Positions 20,322 to 43,480 of a stretch of DNA of 64,000 nucleotides are shown here, one piece after another. The notes beneath the pieces are model-generated. The model was not told the origin of the DNA and did no database searches. It was given only the letters and a program-made list of their open reading frames with translations. This DNA comes from a virus. Its lineage: Duplodnaviria > Heunggongvirae > Uroviricota > Caudoviricetes. The DNA lies in the IMG/VR virus record IMGVR_UViG_3300028048_000076. One strand, given 5' to 3'. The translations under genes were made by a program, and so were the position numbers. How positions within the stretch are numbered: the first letter of the stretch is position 1; each line of letters opens with the position of its first letter.

Positions 20322-20786
20322 ATGGCAAAAAAAGTTATTTTGGGGAACGTTGATTTGAGCGAAGTATCACAAACGCCGTGTTGGTATACGCTTGTTACTC
20401 AATTCAATTATGAGGAAAAAGCTGTAAACAATATTTGTGATGCAATTGACGGTACTGATTTTGCAGATAAAGTAGAAGACTTCTATATTCCTATCAAATA
20501 TAGTAAAGAAGTCGTTCATCTCGCAGACGGTTCGACCAAAAACAAAATCCACAAGGTTAAAGGTGCTTTATCTAATTACATTTTTATCAAATGTGTATTG
20601 GATGAAGGTCTTTGGAATTTGCTACGTACTACAACAGGTGTAGCAGTTATTCCGACAACAGGTGGTTTCCCTGTGGCTATTTCTGAACAGGAAATTAAAA
20701 AGATGAAAGAAAAACAAGCCCCTGAGGGATTTACCCCTGATGAATTAAAAGCCTTGCAAAATAAATTAAAATATAGTCTAGTTTGA
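20322..20786 (+). CDS. NusG N-terminal (NGN) domain protein without KOW domain
   Basis: WYTLVTQFNYEEKAV, FYIP, SNYIFIKC, LWNLLRTTTGV, PVAISEQEI. Confidence 0.85.
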   Translation: MAKKVILGNVDLSEVSQTPCWYTLVTQFNYEEKAVNNICDAIDGTDFADKVEDFYIPIKYSKEVVHLADGSTKNKIHKVKGALSNYIFIKCVLDEGLWNLLRTTTGVAVIPTTGGFPVAISEQEIKKMKEKQAPEGFTPDELKALQNKLKYSLV

Positions 20787-23829: not shown

Positions 23830-23909
23830 GAACATATTAATCCTTCTTTAGTGAATGAGTGATGGCAAAACAGTTATCACTCATTTTTAGTTTACAGAAA
23901 GGCATGGAA

Positions 23910-24737
23910 ATGAATAAGACATTATCATTGTTATTAAACGAAACAAACAACATTATTGTTAATGCACAGCATAACAAACATTATGACAATTACTGTATAT
24001 TCCGTCTAGCGTACCATTCAGACCCCCAAACGGCATTGAGATGGTTATTATACCTTCGAGATATTAAAAGCGGTCTAGGGCAACGTGAAGCGTTTAGAGG
24101 GCTATTAGTGGAAATAGCTAATCATGATATAGAATTAGCTATTAAACTATTACGATTGGATTTGGCTCAATATGGTAGATTTGATGATGAAATTTCCATC
24201 TATGATAAAGTGAATTCAGGTTGTAAAGCTGCTATTATTGATAAAATTAGACATTTACTAAAAGAAGATTTACAATTGGAATCTGAAGGTAAAGATATTT
24301 CTCTATTAGCAAAATGGATGCCATCAATTAATACAAGCAGCCCCCACACGAGAAAATTAGCAAATATGATTAGAAAAGATTTGTTATTATCACCAAGACA
24401 GTATAGAAAAATTCTTTCACGTTTAAGGAAACATTTAAATATTTTAGAAAGAAATTTATCAAAAAAAGACTACAAAAACATAAATTATGAAGAAATTTCT
24501 GCAAAAAATAACCAAAAATATGCAAAACTTTTTGAAAAAAATGATTCAGAACGCAGAATGGAATATTTGAAAAATAAAGAGCAAAAGGATAAGATGTATC
24601 GCATTTTAAATGAATATAATAAAACTATGGACAAGCAAGAAAAAACTGTAGAACAAATTATTTTCAGCGAAAGATACGATATAATCAACGAAATCTTTAC
24701 TCAAAAAAATGATGAAAAATTTGAAATAAATGCCTAA
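23910..24737 (+). CDS. DUF2828-like protein, lacking the usual C-terminal vWA part
   Basis: LLYLRDIKSGLGQREAF, YGRFDD, LLAKWMPSINTSS, YRKILSRLR. Confidence 0.7.
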   Translation: MNKTLSLLLNETNNIIVNAQHNKHYDNYCIFRLAYHSDPQTALRWLLYLRDIKSGLGQREAFRGLLVEIANHDIELAIKLLRLDLAQYGRFDDEISIYDKVNSGCKAAIIDKIRHLLKEDLQLESEGKDISLLAKWMPSINTSSPHTRKLANMIRKDLLLSPRQYRKILSRLRKHLNILERNLSKKDYKNINYEEISAKNNQKYAKLFEKNDSERRMEYLKNKEQKDKMYRILNEYNKTMDKQEKTVEQIIFSERYDIINEIFTQKNDEKFEINA

Positions 24738-32231: not shown

Positions 32232-32345
32232 GTTAATCGCCTATCAATAATAGGCGATTAAACTTTTTTTCAAAAATGTATTGACATTGGTCAAATATTC
32301 ATATATAATATAATCATTCAGAAGGAAATGAAAGGAATGATATTA

Positions 32346-34322
32346 ATGACAAAATATTCGCAGTTAGAGTTTGCAACTGCAATGTTGGGCTTGTTTAAGG
32401 CACTTCCTTGTGTAGATGAAATGTCTGAGCCTGTAAATCTTAATGATTCTGTAAAGATGGATTTTGTTCGCAAAGGTCTTATTTTATCTGATAAAGTCAT
32501 GCACCTTAAAATGCTGAAAAGCAGAGATATTCACTATGCAATTATCAGTAAAATGGGTCAATCGGCTGCGAAATTCAACAATACATTTTTTGAAAATATT
32601 GATAAGATTAGTTCTATGAAAGATGAAGAATATTATTTTCATCAGATTTTGAACTATCTCAGTTTCAATTTGGCAGATATGGGTCTTATTGATAATAGTG
32701 AGATTTATGTGCCGAACGAGAAAATTGGTATTTCTGAGGATATTCCTCCGTATCATTTGACTGTTGTGCAGGCAATGACCAAAGAGGAAACTAAAGAACG
32801 TATTGAAAAACTTTTGTATACAGGTGTAGCTTTGAAAGAAGAAACTGTATCGAAGATTTTCACTGTTAGTGATTGCTTCGGCTTTACTGATGAACTCGAT
32901 GCTGACAAGGTAAAGAATAAGGAAGCACAGCTTACCCTTTATAAACGTACAAATACAGTACCAAAGAATCCTGACTTCTTTGTACGCTATCTGTACTACC
33001 TTGCAACAGGTTCTACTATGCTTGTAAAGAGCAAACGTACTTATAAAATGTTGAACGATACATTGTGCTATAGCTCGTTAGTATCAAATGATATTGCAGG
33101 TGCATTGCGTAAGTATGTTAGCGATTATGGTTGCGAAACTCTTGCAAAAGCGTTTTATCGCAATAAGAAATTGCTTCTTCTCTTTAAAACTAAAGAAACT
33201 GCATACATTATCAATCGTACTCGCCGTTTGGCAGATAAGTACAAGAAAGCTCCGAAAGTCGGTGTTCTTGATAGATTGTCCGAACTCACTATGAAAGATT
33301 GGGATGATTTTGTTGCTGAAGTGGCTAAACTTAATGTATTTAAGAAAGTTGCTTTGATTAACTACATCATGAATCAGCATAGTGGCAATACAGATAGCTT
33401 GTATTTCATTCGTAATGGTAGAGTATTCTTCCGTGAGAATTACAGCGGTGGCAAGCCTAATATGCGATTCTTACAGCATCTCATTGAGAGTGTTGTGGAA
33501 GAAATGTCTCCTATTGTTGCAGGTAAGAAATTCTATATCCCACAGGGTATTGAATATGCTTTCCCTGTTTCTGAGAAGAAGTTCATTGGTGGCATTCCAT
33601 TCAATTCGAAGTTTACTTTGGAACGTAAGGGTGATGTACTCTTCGGTATTCATTGGTACAACTACGATAATGGTACGAAACACGGTAAAAGAACTGACCT
33701 TGACCTCCATATTACATCTGTATATGGTGAACGTATGGGTTGGAATAGCTATTATCGAGACAGTCAGCGTAGCACCTATTTTACAGGTGATATGACAGAT
33801 GCTCCTCGCAATGAAGGTGGTGCTTCTGAGTTGATGTATTTCACAAAGAATGCAAAACCGAATATGTATTCTGTAGCGATAAACAACTTTACCAACAATA
33901 ATTATCCGTTCCCATTCTCGTTGATTGTAAGCAATGCTGTCAATTATGAGGATGATGATAAGAGTGCTGTGGAAATTTGCAAAGATGCGTTTGTTAACAA
34001 CACTTGCAATTACATGACAGTGAATAATTATCTGAAGTCTGCAAACAATACTATGGGTTATTTCATTTTGAATGAAGATACCGCAGAGTTTGTATTTACA
34101 GATATGCAGGTTGGTAAATGTGTTGTACCGAATTCCATCGACTTCGATACCAAGATGATGAAATATATTTCTACTTATAGCGATACCGTTGTAAAACTGA
34201 AAGATGTTTTGGAATGGTGCAAGGCAGAAATTGTAGATGAACCTGTTGAAGGTTGCGTAAATCTTGATTATCGTGAGCTTGGCGAAACCACAATTCTTGA
34301 TGCTTTCTGCAAAAAGGATTGA
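32346..34322 (+). CDS. Large phage protein with TerD-like C-terminal beta domain
   Basis: FGIHW..RTDLDLH..GWNS..FTGDMTDAP..GASE. Confidence 0.55.
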   Translation: MTKYSQLEFATAMLGLFKALPCVDEMSEPVNLNDSVKMDFVRKGLILSDKVMHLKMLKSRDIHYAIISKMGQSAAKFNNTFFENIDKISSMKDEEYYFHQILNYLSFNLADMGLIDNSEIYVPNEKIGISEDIPPYHLTVVQAMTKEETKERIEKLLYTGVALKEETVSKIFTVSDCFGFTDELDADKVKNKEAQLTLYKRTNTVPKNPDFFVRYLYYLATGSTMLVKSKRTYKMLNDTLCYSSLVSNDIAGALRKYVSDYGCETLAKAFYRNKKLLLLFKTKETAYIINRTRRLADKYKKAPKVGVLDRLSELTMKDWDDFVAEVAKLNVFKKVALINYIMNQHSGNTDSLYFIRNGRVFFRENYSGGKPNMRFLQHLIESVVEEMSPIVAGKKFYIPQGIEYAFPVSEKKFIGGIPFNSKFTLERKGDVLFGIHWYNYDNGTKHGKRTDLDLHITSVYGERMGWNSYYRDSQRSTYFTGDMTDAPRNEGGASELMYFTKNAKPNMYSVAINNFTNNNYPFPFSLIVSNAVNYEDDDKSAVEICKDAFVNNTCNYMTVNNYLKSANNTMGYFILNEDTAEFVFTDMQVGKCVVPNSIDFDTKMMKYISTYSDTVVKLKDVLEWCKAEIVDEPVEGCVNLDYRELGETTILDAFCKKD

Positions 34323-38599: not shown

Positions 38600-38911
38600 T
38601 TGACAAATATGTACAAAGATTGTATAATAAGAATGTAGTTGAGAGATAAACAAATGACTTGAATGTTTCATTAATTCTTTCAATAAATTCTAAAAAAGTG
38701 CTTGACAAGATAAAGACATTTTGATATAATAATAAATGTCAAAAGCGAGAAATTAAATTGACTTGATTGTAACAATTAATTCTCGAAAATCTTAAAAAAA
38801 AGTGCTTGACAATAACATTGAAAAATGTTATAATAAAGAAGTCGATTGAGATTGAAATAAATCAAAATCACAAAAAAAGATGTTGACAAATTATCACAAA
38901 AGTGATATAAT
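38600..38911 (+). promoter_or_regulatory. Four tandem consensus sigma70 promoters driving the RNA cluster
   Basis: TTGACA at 38600, 38702, 38806 and 38883, each with TATAAT at 17 bp and an A-rich upstream tract. Confidence 0.85.
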
Positions 38912-39681: not shown

Positions 39682-39758
39682 GACAATCAATTTTGCAAAC
39701 CTTCTCGTGGTGATTGTCGTAAGTATACATTTTTTGAAATGTAGAAACAAATTGCAAA
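39682..39758 (+). ncRNA. HDV-like ribozyme 3
   Basis: P1 GACAATC/GATTGTC, P2 TTTGCAA/TTGCAAA, P3 ACC/GGT, L3 TTCTCGT, P4 TACATTT/AAATGTA, J4/2 GAAACAAA. Confidence 0.85.
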
Positions 39759-39803: not shown

Positions 39804-39942
39804 TTTTTGCATAAACAACTTCCTTTCAGTCTTGCAAAACTATTTTAGTTGTCGCAAAAATAAATATAAAAATTTAATAACGGCATAAATAGCTTCCTTT
39901 TGAAAAATTATTTATGGGAAAGTAATTTAGTTATCGCCGTTA
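39804..39942 (+). repeat. Anti-SD hairpin motif, copies a (39804-39860) and b (39878-39942)
   Basis: stem-ATAA-6bp-TCCTTT...TT-6bp-C-stem. Confidence 0.75.
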
Positions 39943-39948
39943 ATATAT

Positions 39949-40022
39949 GCACTTCTAGTTTAATGGTAAAACTTCGGTTTTGTAAACCGACAATATCAGT
40001 TCAATTCTGATGGGGTGCTCCA
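39949..40022 (+). tRNA. tRNA-Thr(TGT)
   Basis: Cloverleaf, TT-TGT-AA loop, CCA. Confidence 0.9.
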
Positions 40023-40027
40023 ATAAT

Positions 40028-40100
40028 GGCTCGTTGGTCTAGTGGTCTAGGACATTACTCTTTCAAGGTAGTAACAGCAGTTCAAATCTGCTACGAGTCA
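40028..40100 (+). tRNA. tRNA-Glu(TTC), no encoded CCA
   Basis: Cloverleaf, CT-TTC-AA loop; a ribozyme starts right after the discriminator. Confidence 0.9.
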
Positions 40101-40167
40101 GTCACTCAAAGCATTAGCCTTTACGTTGGCGAGTGACATAAGTAGGTTAACCGAAACTAATAATGCT
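40101..40167 (+). ncRNA. HDV-like (theta) ribozyme 4
   Basis: P1 GTCACTC/GAGTGAC, P2 AGCATTA/TAATGCT, P3 GCC/GGC, J4/2 GAAACTAA. Confidence 0.85.
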
Positions 40168-40170
40168 AAA

Positions 40171-40298
40171 AGTCTTGTGACGAAATAGGTAAACGTTATG
40201 TGTAACTTGACACAAACCTTGGCAGTGTGGTTCGATTCCACGATACAAGAATGGAGAAAGCAAGGGATAATGTAAGGTGCAAATCCTTACCAAGACTT
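40171..40298 (+). ncRNA. tRNA-like RNA with two T-arms
   Basis: Acceptor AGTCTTG/CAAGACT, D-arm, internal GTGGTTCGATTCCAC and terminal GTAAGGTGCAAATCCTTAC; no canonical 7-nt anticodon loop. Confidence 0.65.
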
Positions 40299-40390
40299 TT
40301 GTAATTAAAGATATTAAGCTAACATCTTCCCCACTTGTGAACCTGAGATGTAAAGATTGTACAGATATAGGATATAATCAGCTTCATAAT

Positions 40391-40465
40391 ACCTTGGGTG
40401 CGTGTAATGGTAACACGGCTAGACTGTGAATCTAGTAATATGGGTTCGAATCCCATCCCTCGGAC
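40391..40465 (+). tRNA. tRNA-His(GTG), mismatched acceptor stem, no CCA
   Basis: CT-GTG-AA loop, intact T-arm; acceptor CCTTGGG/CCCTCGG has two mismatches. Confidence 0.7.
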
Positions 40466-40537
40466 GGTTTTCTTAAACATCAACCTTCTCGTGGTGAAAA
40501 CTGTAAGTAATCATTTATGATAAAACTAATAGATGTT
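40466..40537 (+). ncRNA. HDV-like (theta) ribozyme 5
   Basis: P1 GGTTTTC/GAAAACT, P3 ACC/GGT, L3 TTCTCGT, P4 ATCAT/ATGAT, P2 AACATC/GATGTT. Confidence 0.85.
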
Positions 40538-40540
40538 AAA

Positions 40541-40608
40541 AAAAGACAAAAAGCACTTCCTTTTGCTAATGCGCCGATTTGTTAAATCGTTTTTAGTGCT
40601 CGTCTTTT
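40541..40608 (+). repeat. Anti-SD hairpin motif, copy c
   Basis: AAAGAC-AAAA-AGCACT-TCCTTT...AGTGCT-C-GTCTTT. Confidence 0.75.
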
Positions 40609-40613
40609 AAAAA

Positions 40614-40690
40614 GGCCCTATAGTTTAGTTGGTCAAAACATCGCCCTGTCACGGCGAAGACCATCGGTTCAAGTCCGATTAGGGTCGCCA
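40614..40690 (+). tRNA. tRNA-Asp(GTC)
   Basis: Cloverleaf, CT-GTC-AC loop, CCA. Confidence 0.92.
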
Positions 40691-40695
40691 AATAT

Positions 40696-40772
40696 GTGTC
40701 AGTAGCTCAGTTGGTAGTAGCAACAGACTTTTAATCTGTAGGTCGTGGATTCAAGTTCCACCTGACACACCA
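40696..40772 (+). tRNA. tRNA-Lys(TTT)
   Basis: Cloverleaf, CT-TTT-AA loop, CCA. Confidence 0.92.
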
Positions 40773-40778
40773 TATTAT

Positions 40779-40859
40779 TCCGCAGTGATGAAATGGTAGA
40801 CATGCTTGACTGTTAATCAAGTGCCGAAAGGCGTGTAGGTTCGAGTCCTACTTGCGGAG
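40779..40859 (+). tRNA. tRNA-Asn(GTT) with long variable arm, no CCA
   Basis: CT-GTT-AA loop, variable arm GCC-GAAA-GGC, G discriminator. Confidence 0.85.
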
Positions 40860-40931
40860 GTTATTCGATAACATCAACCTTTACGTGGTGAATAACATAA
40901 GTAATCATTTATGATGAAACTAATAGATGTT
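40860..40931 (+). ncRNA. HDV-like (theta) ribozyme 6
   Basis: P1 GTTATTC/GAATAAC, P3 ACC/GGT, L3 TTTACGT, P4 ATCAT/ATGAT, J4/2 GAAACTAA. Confidence 0.88.
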
Positions 40932-40935
40932 AAAA

Positions 40936-40990
40936 TAAAGACATAAAACACTTCCTTTTACAACAGGTGTTTGGTTAGTGTTCGTCTTTA
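40936..40990 (+). repeat. Anti-SD hairpin motif, copy d
   Basis: AAAGAC-ATAA-AACACT-TCCTTT...AGTGTT-C-GTCTTT. Confidence 0.75.
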
Positions 40991-40996
40991 AAAAAA

Positions 40997-41083
40997 GCGA
41001 GGATGGCGAAATCAGGCATACGCACAGAGTTTAAGCCTCTGCGGTTTTATACCATGTGGGTTCGACCCCCACTCTTCGCACCA
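40997..41083 (+). tRNA. tRNA-Leu(TAA)
   Basis: Class II cloverleaf, TT-TAA-GC loop, CCA. Confidence 0.9.
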
Positions 41084-41084
41084 T

Positions 41085-41168
41085 GCCCTTGTGCTGAAAT
41101 TGGCAGACAGGGTGCGCTCAAAACGCACTGATGGTAACATCGTACAGGTTCAAATCCTGTCAGGGGCA
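41085..41168 (+). tRNA. tRNA-Leu(CAA), no CCA
   Basis: Class II cloverleaf, CT-CAA-AA loop, A discriminator followed by a ribozyme. Confidence 0.9.
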
Positions 41169-41239
41169 GTTATCCAATAACATCAACCTTTACGTGGTGG
41201 ATAATATAAGTAATTCATAAGAATGAAACTAATGATGTT
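41169..41239 (+). ncRNA. HDV-like (theta) ribozyme 7
   Basis: P1 GTTATCC/GGATAAT, P2 AACATCA/TGATGTT, P3 ACC/GGT, P4 ATTC/GAAT. Confidence 0.88.
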
Positions 41240-41244
41240 AAATG

Positions 41245-41705
41245 CTTTGTGGAAATGGCAACTGATTTCAACGAAACAAACGTATTGTACCTTCGATTGA
41301 GATTACAGTTGAGAGTATTAAATCAAAGTAATCATGCTAGTACCCCATTTTGGACACACTAGGAATTTTGCTTAATGACTGTGGAGATTGATTATCGTAG
41401 AAGCAGTAAAACACCACACAAATTATGGGCTTTATTAAGGTTAGCGTCTTATGAAGTCGAATCGAATCCGAACTAAATCGTATAATCGCCCACACATAAC
41501 GCTAATGTGATGGAGAAATACGATGGAAGGCCCTTTTGGCACGAGGGTACGGATATGGTATGCAGAGAACTACAACCTGTCAGTGAGTTATCAGCTGCGA
41601 ATGTAGCCGTAGAATACCGCGAGAGCGTATCGAGGGAGAAGGCGAACTCTCGACGTTAGGTGTAAAATACGCAAGAGGTTATGATGCCACATAACTTCGT
41701 CTTTA
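41245..41705 (+). ncRNA. Candidate large ornate RNA (ROOL/GOLLD class)
   Basis: ~460 nt with no ORF, more GC-rich than its flanks, many helices (GGGC/GCCC, TTAGCGT/ACGCTAA, TCGAG/CTCGA, AGTTATG-type), inside the tRNA array. Confidence 0.45.
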
Positions 41706-41706
41706 T

Positions 41707-41797
41707 GGAGCAGTACCCAAGTGGTTATAAGGGAACAGTCTTGAAAACTGTGAGGTCGCAGTGATGCGGTGCGTGAGTTCGAATCTCACCTGCTCTT
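41707..41797 (+). tRNA. tRNA-Ser(TGA), no CCA
   Basis: Class II cloverleaf, CT-TGA-AA loop. Confidence 0.88.
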
Positions 41798-41798
41798 C

Positions 41799-41867
41799 GT
41801 TGTTCATTGTATCAGCCTTTTCGTGGCGAACAACATAAGTAATCAAAATGATGAAACCAATGATACT
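41799..41867 (+). ncRNA. HDV-like (theta) ribozyme 8
   Basis: P1 GTTGTTC/GAACAAC, P2 GTATCA/TGATAC, P3 GCC/GGC, L3 TTTTCGT, J4/2 GAAACCAA. Confidence 0.85.
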
Positions 41868-41883
41868 ATTAAATATAATTAAT

Positions 41884-41958
41884 GCGAATATAATTTAATG
41901 GTTAGAATCTCAGTCTTCCAAACTGATTGTGTCGGTTCGATTCCGACTATTCGCTCCA
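41884..41958 (+). tRNA. tRNA-Gly(TCC)
   Basis: CT-TCC-AA loop, U discriminator, CCA. Confidence 0.9.
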
Positions 41959-41962
41959 TAAT

Positions 41963-42049
41963 GGGTAGGTGTGATAAGCGGCGAAATCAGCGGACTGTAA
42001 ATCCGTGACACTAGAAACATCGAAGGTTCGAGTCCTTCCCTGCCCACCA
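41963..42049 (+). tRNA. tRNA-Tyr(GTA)
   Basis: CT-GTA-AA loop, long variable arm, CCA. Confidence 0.9.
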
Positions 42050-42128
42050 CGTTACCGAAGAGAAATTACTTTAACGTAGTGGTAACGTTAAGTATGTATT
42101 TTAACAATACAGAAACTAAAAATTTCTC
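42050..42128 (+). ncRNA. HDV-like (theta) ribozyme 9
   Basis: P1 CGTTACC/GGTAACG, P2 GAGAAATT/AATTTCTC, P3 ACT/AGT, L3 TTAACGT, P4 TGTATT/AATACA; starts right after CCA. Confidence 0.8.
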
Positions 42129-42282
42129 ATATAAATATTTTTTTGGCTGACGAAGCCACTCTAAAAATATTTTGGAGTGTAGCACATTAATGTGCTACTA
42201 TTTAATTTGCTTAATTAAGAAATGGTAAACGGACTTCAATTATCTGAATGCTCCCAAAAAACCTTTCTTTAAAAAAAATATA

Positions 42283-42417
42283 TTTTGGCATAAATAACTT
42301 CCTTTTTTTTACAGCTAAATGAAAAACACTTGTTTAGTTATCGCCAAAACAAGATTTCAAGTATGGCAAAAAATAGTTCCTTTTCTTATTTATCAGATAC
42401 TATAGAAATGCCGTTAT
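42283..42417 (+). repeat. Anti-SD hairpin motif, copies e (42283-42349) and f (42362-42417, degenerate)
   Basis: TTTTGGC-ATAA-ATAACT-TCCTTT...AGTTAT-C-GCCAAAA. Confidence 0.7.
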
Positions 42418-42958
42418 AACGGCATTTCACCATTACTATTCGCCATGCAAAAATAACGGGTCGTTGAAAAATTGCGAAAAAGCACAGCAATCTTCATTTT
42501 GTGATACCTCCCTTTCATAAGATATAAATACGGCATATATAGACTGTGTTAAGTAACAATGAAGTAAACTGCTAATAAGTGGAATGAACTGTGAGAAATC
42601 CTTAATGAATTAAATCCCTCTTACAATTACAATGTTGAATATCCCATAGAATGTGAATGTGGGTTTAAAATATTCGTTCAATTTTTAACTAAGGATTATA
42701 ATTGAAAAATAGTGAATGATGGATAAAGTTCATGTTGTTGTGAGTCTACACAAAATGGCAGTTTTGTGTAGTTAAATGTGTATTTGGGAATTTCGTTTAA
42801 ACACTTCTCGATAAGTCAAAGTTGTTTTTGATATTTTCAACTTTAAAATAAAAAAAATACATTTTCACAAAAAGGTTCGTGGTGTGTACCAACAAACCCT
42901 TTCTTTTAAAAAGAGTATTAGATAATCTAATACTCTTTTTTGATTATTACAATTATAG

Positions 42959-43480
42959 GTGATTAATGTGAATTTTATAATAAGGAAACAATTAAAAGAT
43001 TTGTTGGATAAAGCGAAAACTATTACAGAAAGAATTTCAAATACTTACATAAATAATGTTATTACTACAGAATACCATCAATCTATGGATTCAGGTGGGG
43101 CAATAGAAAAATGTATAATGGATAGAACGGCAACAAATTTACCTCCAAAAATAGGTACAGATATTAATACTACAAAAATTAGTTATAGTAGGAGTAGTAG
43201 TTCGCCATTTAGTTTGATTATTCAACCTCAATATGTTTTTATTGGTGGTTATGGGTCAAAGATGGGTAGAGCAACTTTGACTTTCGTAGATAATGTAACA
43301 ATATATGTTTATTTGTCAAGAGATAAAGATAAATATGGCGTTATTAATATTGAACAATATGACCGTTTGTTAGGTGGGGATGATAGAGATATTCATTTTT
43401 CTCGCGTGTTAGTTATGCGTGTTCAAACTAATTTGAATGGTATCACAGATGTTCATTGTTATGATGTAGGCAATTATTAA
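42959..43480 (+). CDS. Short paralog of the two downstream putative receptor-binding proteins
   Basis: Shares NLPPKIG and (F/L)(I/L)GGY...IY(V/L)YL motifs. Confidence 0.7.
   Translation: MINVNFIIRKQLKDLLDKAKTITERISNTYINNVITTEYHQSMDSGGAIEKCIMDRTATNLPPKIGTDINTTKISYSRSSSSPFSLIIQPQYVFIGGYGSKMGRATLTFVDNVTIYVYLSRDKDKYGVINIEQYDRLLGGDDRDIHFSRVLVMRVQTNLNGITDVHCYDVGNY

What the first reader, a model, noticed from the sequence alone, without database searches (positions are those of the whole stretch)
39804..42417. Repeated covarying hairpin carrying the complement of a ribosome-binding site plus start codon
Six copies (39804, 39878, 40541, 40936, 42283, degenerate 42362) read stem-C-A(T/A)AA-[6 bp]-TCCTTT-variable loop-TT-[6 bp]-C-stem. 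The stems covary (ACAACT/AGTTGT, AGCACT/AGTGCT, AACACT/AGTGTT, ATAACT/AGTTAT). The 5' arm is the reverse complement of AAAGGA-N8-(A/T)TG, and (C/A)ACUUCCUUU resembles the 16S rRNA anti-SD tail. They lie in spacers released by ribozyme and tRNA processing. Candidates are translation-initiation sponges or antisense RNAs, a protein-binding motif with a 4x1 internal loop, or processing signals. I do not recognise the motif.
Basis: partly seen in the sequence, partly recalled or inferred. Interest (0 to 1): 0.72.

Follow-up and report, generated by a model that had tools for sequence, protein, structure and literature searches.

The report
Phage hairpin RNAs with protein partner
The six repeated hairpins are real members of an uncatalogued family of small folded RNAs of large phages that always travels with one uncharacterised ~650-residue protein, so they look like the RNA half of a new Y-RNA/Ro60-like particle and not like antisense blockers of translation.

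Summary
There are six full copies on the + strand; the "degenerate" sixth is complete and simply has a long loop.

All share one handle: a 7-bp outer stem, an AUAA/C internal loop, a 6-bp inner stem, and a loop that opens with UCCUUU.

A covariance model found 57 more copies in about 25 other phage contigs. Across 59 distinct sequences 96% of cells pair, and 11 of 13 pairs show two-sided changes. Rfam 15 has no such family.

The copies occur in two settings, always on the tRNA strand:
- as tRNA-like cassettes inside tRNA arrays;
- as 1-4 tandem copies, usually followed by a terminator, just upstream of a ~650-aa gene.

That gene's homologue lies in this window at 32328-34322. It has no Pfam or PDB sequence match and a TerD-like C-terminal fold. 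Nine of nine sizeable hairpin-bearing viral records encode it.

Some relatives carry tRNA-like loops. One, in cultured cyanophage S-CRM01, gives a sub-threshold YrlA match.

Best reading: these are protein-binding small RNAs, a Y-RNA-like partner of a TerD-type protein. The anti-RBS reading is not supported.

The scan had already noted this family on other DNA (e1-5414324). I saw that note only after reaching the same reading.

The parts
39804..39860 (+). Hairpin copy 1: P1 TTTTTGC/GCAAAAA, bulge ATAA vs C, P2 ACAACT/AGTTGT, loop begins TCCTTT
   Evidence: (62.6 bits)
39878..39942 (+). Hairpin copy 2 (P1 TAACGGC/GCCGTTA, P2 ATAGCT/AGTTAT with one G-U); ends 6 nt before tRNA-Thr
   Evidence: (67.1 bits)
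40541..40608 (+). Hairpin copy 3 (bulge AAAA, P2 AGCACT/AGTGCT); starts right after the HDV-like ribozyme match 40466-40540 and ends 5 nt before tRNA-Asp
   Evidence: (69.6 bits)
40936..40990 (+). Hairpin copy 4 (P2 AACACT/AGTGTT; same P1 as copy 3); follows ribozyme match 40860-40934 and ends 6 nt before tRNA-Leu
   Evidence: (66.6 bits)
42283..42349 (+). Hairpin copy 5 (P1 TTTTGGC/GCCAAAA, P2 ATAACT/AGTTAT), after the last tRNA of the array
   Evidence: 77.4 bits
42361..42448 (+). Hairpin copy 6, a complete member: P1 GTATGGC/GCCATGC, bulge AAAA, P2 AATAGT/ACTATT, C; its 57-nt loop contains a strong hairpin at 42406-42427
   Evidence: (40.9 bits, not in the training set)
32328..34322 (+). 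Gene for the 664-aa partner-family protein: N-terminal helical repeats plus a C-terminal TerD-like beta-sandwich, with no Pfam, PHROG or PDB sequence match. Its homologues lie directly downstream of tandem hairpins in many other phages.
38600..38911 (+). Four perfect sigma-70 consensus promoters (TTGACA-17-TATAAT) that head the + strand RNA array holding the hairpins
39682..39746 (+). HDV-like (theta-type) ribozyme match 57 nt upstream of copy 1. Equivalent matches at 40466-40540 and 40860-40934 abut copies 3 and 4.
   Evidence: RF02682, 17.9-25.8 bits, below Rfam's threshold; PMC10879173 for the ribozyme class

Best explanation
The hairpins are genes for small structured RNAs. Their conserved base is a handle: P1, the AUA(A)/C internal loop, the 6-bp P2, and UCCU(U)U at the 5' edge of the loop. 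This handle is the recognition site for the ~650-aa TerD-type protein encoded at 32328-34322.

In this phage four strong promoters transcribe them as part of the tRNA/ribozyme array. They are then freed by the cuts that mature the neighbouring tRNAs: RNase P at the next tRNA's 5' end, and the theta ribozyme or RNase Z at the previous unit. Copies 3 and 4 start as ribozyme-hairpin fusions.

The released RNAs bind the protein to form an RNA-protein particle analogous to Y RNA with Ro60. The handle is constant and the apical loop is a free module, which in some relatives is a tRNA mimic.

Shown: the structure, the family, the two genomic settings, and the linkage to the protein.

Inferred: release as discrete RNAs, direct binding, and a role in tRNA/RNA maintenance or its control.
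For: 1. Structure under selection. 59 distinct copies give 95.9% paired cells, 11 of 13 pairs with two-sided changes, and covariation 0.70 against 0.17 in shuffles. Slid controls drop to 32-51% pairing.

2. The invariant unpaired bases sit at two places a fixed helix apart, as expected of a protein site.

3. Linkage to the protein when starting from the RNA. 17 loci found only through the RNA pattern have the homologue of 32328-34322 next downstream or one small ORF away (E 1e-15 to 1e-104).

4. Linkage when starting from the protein. Homologues fetched with no reference to the RNA carry hairpins directly upstream:
- L199 has 4 copies;
- L201 has 1 copy, in the 5'UTR;
- cultured cyanophage S-CRM01 has at least 5 copies upstream and 1 downstream of g174;
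- Phass-1 has 4 copies, 1.4 kb downstream of the gene.

5. Co-occurrence. Nine of nine sizeable hairpin-bearing IMG/VR records encode exactly one copy, against 0 of 3 unrelated large viral records.

6. tRNA-like handling. All 174 tRNAs in hairpin loci are on the hairpin strand, and copies abut tRNAs by 0-8 nt. One example is tRNA-Glu|hairpin|hairpin|tRNA-Cys in L178.

7. RNA made in excess of protein. In 13 of 18 adjacent loci a strong stem plus T-run (-12 to -27 kcal/mol) lies between the last hairpin and the gene, with only about 20-30 nt left before the ATG.

8. Y-RNA-like modularity. Loops range from 16 nt to over 70 nt. Some hold T-arm-like hairpins (L199, L158/L175/L193, S-CRM01). The S-CRM01 member L202:2544-2658 matches Rfam YrlA over its full length at E 1e-5 to 1e-6.

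9. RNA-repair neighbours in several lineages. The window and L140 have a kinase-HD protein and RlaP. L199 has Rnl2, RtcB, two RlaP genes and an AlkB-like gene.
Against: - No binding data exist; the link is purely genomic.
- The partner's N-terminal 425 residues match no known RNA-binding fold (best Z 7.0 to unrelated helical repeats). TerD domains are not known RNA binders.
- In this window the gene is not adjacent to the hairpins; it lies 5.5 kb upstream of the first copy.
- RNA-repair genes are not universal companions: RlaP is in 2 of 5 and RtcB in 0 of 5 hairpin-bearing genomes. The proposed physiological role is therefore weak.
- Most distant members were collected with a sequence pattern that fixed CATAA, TTCCTTT and TCG. 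Part of the apparent invariance is therefore by construction.
- Many loci are close relatives of one another, leaving about 12 independent lineages.
- Nothing cuts between the ribozyme and copies 3 and 4.
Confidence: 0.55

Rival explanations
1. The hairpin array plus terminator is mainly a cis-acting control unit or an RNA antitoxin for the downstream protein. The repeats would be made in excess and neutralise or titrate the protein, as in type III toxin-antitoxin loci (ToxI-terminator-toxN). Alternatively, the protein would bind its own leader to tune terminator read-through. Copies in tRNA arrays would then be extra neutralising or titrating RNA.
For: The order promoter, 2-4 tandem repeats, intrinsic terminator, gene, with no room for a separate promoter, is seen in about 6 independent lineages. 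In L201 a single hairpin lies in the 5'UTR, 25 nt from the SD.
Against: - The repeats are covarying hairpins, not near-identical direct repeats.
- The protein shows no ToxN/AbiQ-like or other nuclease fold.
- In the window, L178, L184, L192 and L163 the hairpins are far from the gene and are built into tRNA arrays.
- Hairpins also lie downstream of the gene in S-CRM01, L188 and Phass-1.
- This reading still needs the protein to bind the handle, so it overlaps the main one.
Confidence: 0.17
2. One reading: the RNAs act by base pairing, with UCCUUU (an anti-SD look-alike) plus the 5' arm binding ribosome-binding sites and start codons of mRNAs as a sponge or antisense repressor.
For: In the window the 5' side reads as the exact complement of AAAGGA-N8-(A/T)TG. 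UCC stays conserved in all members, and the RNAs are driven by very strong promoters.
Against: - The anti-start CAU is not kept in distant members, and the U-rich tail varies.
- The 5' arm is locked in two helices that are under strong selection to pair.
- No initiation region in 64 kb matches within 3 mismatches.
- This reading does not explain the strict linkage to one protein family.
Confidence: 0.07
3. The hairpins are passive structural spacers or processing aids. They would insulate ribozyme and tRNA folding, or guide RNase P/Z, and have no life of their own.
For: In the window they sit exactly between ribozymes and tRNAs.
Against: - Sequence-invariant unpaired bases are not needed for insulation.
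- The same motif forms promoter-driven, terminator-ended units with no tRNA or ribozyme nearby, as in L159, L160, L162, L170 and L186.
- It tracks one protein family.
Confidence: 0.07
4. The hairpins recruit a processive antiterminator, for example the phage NusG-like protein at 20322-20786, in the way LoaP uses a leader hairpin. RNA polymerase could then read through the structured array and the terminators that follow.
For: The window encodes an NGN-domain protein (Pfam NusG, 4.8e-12). In relatives the hairpins lie upstream of terminators. LoaP sets a precedent for a NusG paralogue that binds a leader hairpin (PMC12691694).
Against: - The NusG-like protein is found in only 1 of 5 hairpin-bearing genomes, against 5 of 5 for the TerD-type protein.
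- LoaP's element is a small UNCG tetraloop hairpin, unlike this motif.
- Copies abutting tRNA ends, or lying after the last gene, fit released RNAs better.
Confidence: 0.05

Closest known systems
Y RNAs of bacteria and phages (YrlA/YrlB, Rfam RF02553) with Ro60/Rsr (Chen et al. 2014, PMC4201824)
   Same: - Small RNAs encoded beside, or in the same genome as, one large RNA-binding protein gene.
- A basal helix with conserved bases acts as the handle and carries a variable module, sometimes a tRNA mimic.
- They occur in phage tRNA regions and near RNA-repair genes.
- One family member, in S-CRM01, gives a full-length sub-threshold YrlA match.
   Different: - The handle sequence is different: there is no GNCGAAN0-1G motif.
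- The window's six copies have no tRNA-like domain and no YrlA match.
- The partner has no TROVE or vWA match. It carries a TerD-like domain instead.
- Copies come in tandem sets of 2-4.
Type III toxin-antitoxin loci (ToxIN, CptIN, TenpIN; own knowledge)
   Same: Promoter, tandem RNA repeats, intrinsic terminator, protein gene. The layout makes RNA in excess of protein.
   Different: - The repeats are covarying hairpins, not near-identical 36-45-nt direct repeats.
- The protein is about 650 aa and has no ToxN-like fold.
- Many copies lie in tRNA arrays far from the gene.
LoaP leader hairpin (NusG paralogue antitermination; PMC12691694)
   Same: A small leader hairpin upstream of terminators that is bound by a dedicated protein.
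   Different: The LoaP element is a UNCG tetraloop hairpin. The NusG-like gene does not co-occur with this motif.
Small stable RNAs inside phage tRNA clusters (T4 species 1 and 2 RNAs; own knowledge) and theta ribozymes next to phage tRNAs (PMC10879173)
   Same: Non-tRNA RNAs embedded in phage tRNA arrays and matured by the same processing events.
   Different: - They share no sequence or structure with this motif.
- The theta-ribozyme paper does not mention a downstream hairpin.

Membership tests
YrlA / Y RNA (Rfam RF02553) | Match to the Rfam covariance model at or above its gathering score (69 bits) | tested here: not met
   No YrlA match to any window copy even at E<=10. A relative with a tRNA-like loop (S-CRM01, L202:2544-2658) reaches 35.9 bits, E 1e-5.
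YrlA / Y RNA (Rfam RF02553) | Conserved GNCGAAN0-1G (bacterial) or GGUCCGA (vertebrate) Ro60-binding motif on the 5' strand of the basal stem (PMC4201824) | tested here: not met
   The handle reads C-AUA(A)-A-N-N-A-S-U-UCCUUU in 59 distinct copies.
YrlA / Y RNA (Rfam RF02553) | tRNA-like domain (T and D arms) | tested here: not met
   The window loops are 16-57 nt with no T or D arm. Some relatives do carry T-arm-like or full tRNA-like loops.
YrlA / Y RNA (Rfam RF02553) | Partner is a Ro60/TROVE ring protein encoded nearby | tested here: inconclusive
   The partner family has no TROVE or vWA Pfam match at E<=1 and no PDB sequence match. Fold searches of the N-terminal domain list only generic helical repeats with Z<=7, which does not exclude a distant relation.
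Type III toxin-antitoxin | Antitoxin is a run of near-identical direct repeats cut by the toxin | tested here: not met
   The copies differ in both stems and loops while keeping their pairing.
Type III toxin-antitoxin | Promoter - repeats - terminator - toxin gene | tested here: met
   Seen in relatives: 13 of 18 adjacent loci, about 6 lineages. Not seen in this window, where the gene lies 5.5 kb upstream of the hairpins.
Type III toxin-antitoxin | Toxin is a small ToxN/AbiQ-type endoribonuclease | tested here: inconclusive
   The 664-aa protein's only clear fold match is TerD (2qz7_B, Z 9.7, rmsd 3.4, 135 aligned residues). No nuclease was listed.
TerD domain (for the partner protein) | TerD beta-sandwich fold with acidic Ca-binding motifs | tested here: met
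   - Foldseek probability 1.00 to 3ibz, 2qz7 and 2kxt.
- VIA Z 9.7 and 8.3 over residues 432-614.
- Conserved DLDLH and GD.T...E motifs.
- The Pfam TerD model does not match by sequence.
- Ca binding was not tested.
LoaP-type leader hairpin | UNCG tetraloop hairpin bound by a NusG paralogue | tested here: not met
   The motif has a large loop with no UNCG (PMC12691694). The NusG-like gene is present in 1 of 5 hairpin genomes.
Any Rfam 15 family | Covariance-model match | tested here: not met
   At the six sites there is only chance-level noise: FopS on the opposite strand (E 8.4), CRISPR-DR42 (E 9.9) and LOOT (E 9.9).

The most novel reading that the evidence does not exclude
Large phages, from rumen and gut phages to the cultured cyanophage S-CRM01, carry an undescribed RNA-protein particle. 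It would pair a TerD-type ~650-aa protein with modular 'handle' RNAs that are matured by the tRNA-processing machinery and sometimes mimic tRNA. It would be a second, independent counterpart of Ro60/Y RNA that acts on phage or host tRNA/RNA turnover during infection.
Probability: 0.4. Interest if true: 0.85.

Novelty: new variant of a known kind. Interest (0 to 1): 0.72.

Why it matters
If the pairing is real, this adds a whole RNA family and a whole protein family to the small list of bacterial and phage RNA-protein particles. Neither family is in Rfam or Pfam.

It would also explain part of the "dark" non-tRNA content of phage tRNA arrays.

It comes with a tractable model. Synechococcus phage S-CRM01 is cultured. 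It has the protein (g174) in the middle of its tRNA array, flanked by at least six handle RNAs, one of them a YrlA-like tRNA mimic.

The conserved handle gives a precise mutational target. The promoter-repeats-terminator-gene layout gives a testable model for how the RNA:protein ratio is set.

Tried and rejected
- Close relatives by protein words in IMG/VR. Neither the 833-aa downstream protein nor RlaP gave any locus.
- DNA similarity to GenBank phages found only tRNA matches.
- The first strict motif pattern found nothing in IMG/VR.
- The strict pattern in GTDB genomes gave 4 hits, all chance.
- Contigs of close relatives reached through RlaP break before the array. One contig had no DNA available and one protein was not on record.
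- The theta-ribozyme paper has no mention of a hairpin, spacer or stem-loop.
- FopS similarity was rejected: opposite strand, E 8.4.
- The Bacteroidetes-type promoter idea was dropped once perfect sigma-70 promoters were seen.
- Antisense targets in the window: none.
- A wider scan for long-loop copies in the window found only the six.
- Whole-protein Foldseek gave only meaningless low-TM matches besides TerD.
- Ro60 did not appear in any fold list for the N-terminal domain. This is not evidence against a relation.
- The DUF2828 literature search was uninformative, as was the PDB sequence search with the DUF2828 protein.
- The UCCUUU literature search found nothing relevant.
- GGA-rich stretches in many loops could pair with UUCC. 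They are absent from many copies, so I did not treat this as a conserved third helix.


Full report
**Observation.**

The region 38.9-42.45 kb is a + strand RNA array. It is headed by four perfect sigma-70 promoters. It holds 12 tRNAs, sub-threshold HDV-like (theta-type) ribozyme matches and other non-coding stretches.

The exact word CWWAANNNNNTTCCTTT occurs six times in the 64-kb window, only at the six reported sites and only on the + strand.

I built a covariance model from five window copies and three copies from relatives (A3/R1). It recovered those five window copies at 63-77 bits. It also scored the sixth site, which was not used to build the model, at 40.9 bits over 42361-42448. The next best hit anywhere in the window was 19 bits.

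So copy 6 is a complete member. Its 3' arm lies beyond a strong extra hairpin housed in its loop. A structure-aware scan allowing loops up to 450 nt finds only these six.

**The family.**

No Rfam 15 model matches the sites. DNA patterns derived from the motif retrieved true members from three sources:
- JGI metagenomes (L123, a close relative of the array; L130);
- IMG/VR (L071; then 23 loci from 22 mostly 100-416-kb viral contigs);
- contigs of relatives reached through neighbouring proteins (L140, L151, L154, L155).

Aligned to the model, the 63 copies (59 distinct) give these figures:
- 95.9% paired cells, against 67.8% after shuffling;
- two-sided changes at 11 of 13 pairs;
- a covariation score of 0.70 against 0.17;
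- a collapse to 32-51% pairing when the partners are slid by 1-3 columns.

The unpaired invariant bases are the bulge AUA(A), the single C opposite it, and UCCUUU at the 5' edge of the loop. Part of this invariance was imposed by the search pattern. However, copies found only by the model or by protein-first searches keep the same architecture with a looser sequence: bulges ACA, AAA or AUA, and UCCUGU, UCCUAU, UCCUCU or UCCCAU. Loops range from 16 nt to over 70 nt and are not conserved between orthologues.

**Two genomic settings.**

(A) Inside tRNA arrays. All 174 tRNAs in hairpin-bearing loci lie on the hairpin strand. Copies often abut tRNAs by 0-8 nt, for example tRNA-Glu|hairpin|hairpin|tRNA-Cys in L178. 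The window belongs to this setting. Copies 3 and 4 start directly after ribozyme matches, and copies 2, 3 and 4 end 5-6 nt before a tRNA.

(B) As 1-4 tandem copies directly upstream of a ~600-685-aa gene. In 13 of 18 such loci a strong stem plus T-run lies between the last hairpin and the start codon. It leaves too little room for another promoter.

**The linked protein.**

That downstream gene is the homologue of the window's ORF 32328-34322 (blastp/tblastn E 1e-15 to 1e-104). Counting near-identical loci once, about 12 lineages show hairpins within about 600 nt upstream of it.

The reverse test started from protein homologues chosen without regard to RNA:
- L199 has four divergent hairpins ending 15 nt before the ATG.
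- L201 has one hairpin in the 5'UTR behind a consensus promoter.
- L200 has none adjacent.
- Cultured Synechococcus phage S-CRM01 has its homologue (g174) in the middle of its tRNA array, with at least five copies upstream and one downstream.
- Gut phage Phass-1 has four tandem copies 1.4 kb downstream of the gene.

Where hairpins sit in tRNA arrays away from the gene, the same genome still encodes exactly one copy. This holds for 9 of 9 sizeable records; the only miss is an 8-kb fragment. It holds for 0 of 3 unrelated large viral records.

By contrast, among hairpin-bearing genomes the window's NusG-like protein is found in 1 of 5, RlaP in 2 of 5 and RtcB in 0 of 5.

**What the protein is.**

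It has no Pfam, PHROG or PDB sequence match. All database homologues are labelled hypothetical.

The predicted structure (pLDDT 74.6) has two parts:
- N-terminal helical repeats with no convincing structural relative (best Z 7.0; a separate N-terminal model reached pLDDT 82.9);
- a C-terminal TerD-like beta-sandwich (2qz7_B, Z 9.7, rmsd 3.4 over 135 residues; 2kxt, Z 8.3; Foldseek probability 1.0).

Full-length structural relatives exist in Campylobacter and Lactobacillus phages.

Neighbours include RNA-repair genes in some lineages. The window and L140 have a kinase-HD protein, a radical SAM protein, RlaP and a SLOG protein. L199 has Rnl2, RtcB, two RlaP genes and an AlkB-like gene, beside a GOLLD RNA.

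**Interpretation.**

The pattern is an invariant two-site handle on covarying helices, free apical modules, tRNA-style embedding, production in excess of the protein, and strict linkage to one protein family. It is best explained by small RNAs that are bound by that protein.

The closest known system is Y RNA with Ro60. The analogy is strengthened by members whose loops are tRNA-like. The S-CRM01 member L202:2544-2658 matches Rfam YrlA over the full model at 35.9 bits, E about 1e-5.

Membership in the Y RNA family nevertheless fails for the window copies. They have no model match, no GNCGAA motif, no tRNA domain and no detectable TROVE partner.

The physiological role is inferred only from context and is weak. 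Candidates are tRNA/RNA maintenance, control of the protein, or decoy action.

**Rival readings.**

- The anti-RBS reading is disfavoured. The 'anti-start' is not conserved, most of the strand is paired, and no target exists in the window.
- Passive spacers do not explain the setting-B units.
- NusG-type antitermination lacks co-occurrence, and LoaP's element is a UNCG hairpin.
- A type III-antitoxin-like or autoregulatory role remains a live variant, because the leader layout matches it.

**Prior notes of this scan.**

After reaching this reading I found that the scan had already described the same kind of pair on other DNA. Notes e1-5414324 and e1-1854272 report a hairpin array with a TerD-type ~650-aa partner.

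My results agree on the family and the partner. I could not reproduce a Ro60-like fold for this partner's N-terminal domain.

Noticed in passing
window 20322-20786 (+): A phage-encoded NusG-like (NGN domain) protein of 154 aa (Pfam NusG, 4.8e-12). It could be a specialised transcription elongation factor. It was found in only 1 of 5 other hairpin-bearing phages.
   Followed up: partly
window 23859-24737 (+): A 292-aa protein with a partial DUF2828 match (1.6e-17). It is also present in a close relative (L146). It gave no PDB sequence match, and its role is unknown.
   Followed up: partly
window 42414-42536 (-): A 40-codon minus-strand ORF with a strong SD (AAAGGGAGGT). It converges on the array and overlaps the 3' part of hairpin copy 6. 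It may be a small gene or chance.
   Followed up: no
window 42179-42198 and 42908-42940 (+): Two terminator-like hairpins with T-runs. One lies before copies 5 and 6. The other, very strong one lies just upstream of the gene at 42959. This suggests that the downstream paralogous genes depend on read-through or on a weak local promoter.
   Followed up: no
window 40541-40608 and 40936-40990: Copies 3 and 4 share an identical outer stem (AAAGAC/GTCTTT), and each follows a near-identical ribozyme. This points to a recent duplication of a ribozyme-hairpin cassette.
   Followed up: no
L199 4540-6000 (ENA contig of 3.99 Mb): In order: a 14-tRNA array, RNA-repair genes, a GOLLD RNA (139 bits, E 2e-38, just under Rfam's threshold), a 112-nt tRNA-like element with an insert that contains half of the handle sequence, four hairpins, the partner gene, and then further repair genes (a second R2K gene, RtcB and two RlaP genes).
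   Followed up: partly
L202 2441-2900 and 4749-4804 (Synechococcus phage S-CRM01, NC_015569.1 about 132119-134482): A cultured phage carries at least six handle RNAs around g174. One (L202:2544-2658) is a YrlA-like tRNA mimic. The annotated minus-strand ORF g173c overlaps these RNAs and is probably not a gene.
   Followed up: partly
L183 12919-12995, L184 2323-2399: A tRNA with a CUA anticodon (called 'Pyl' by ARAGORN, so a likely amber suppressor) sits between two hairpins. The Phass-1 record is classed in a 'code 15' clade. Some carriers of the family may therefore recode TAG.
   Followed up: no
L186 8300-8510, L162 (minus strand) just upstream of its hairpins: A conserved, apparently structured stretch of about 130 nt lies directly upstream of the hairpin arrays in two phage lineages. 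Rfam gives no match at the gathering threshold.
   Followed up: no
L130 (minus strand) about 525-455: Downstream of the hairpin lies a tRNA-Ser-like 5' half that breaks off in the anticodon loop. A 140-aa ORF follows. This may be an intron or insertion in a phage tRNA gene.
   Followed up: no
L201 725-6500: A distant partner-family gene, with a single hairpin in its 5'UTR, is inserted between dnaK and dnaJ homologues on a 53-kb contig.
   Followed up: no
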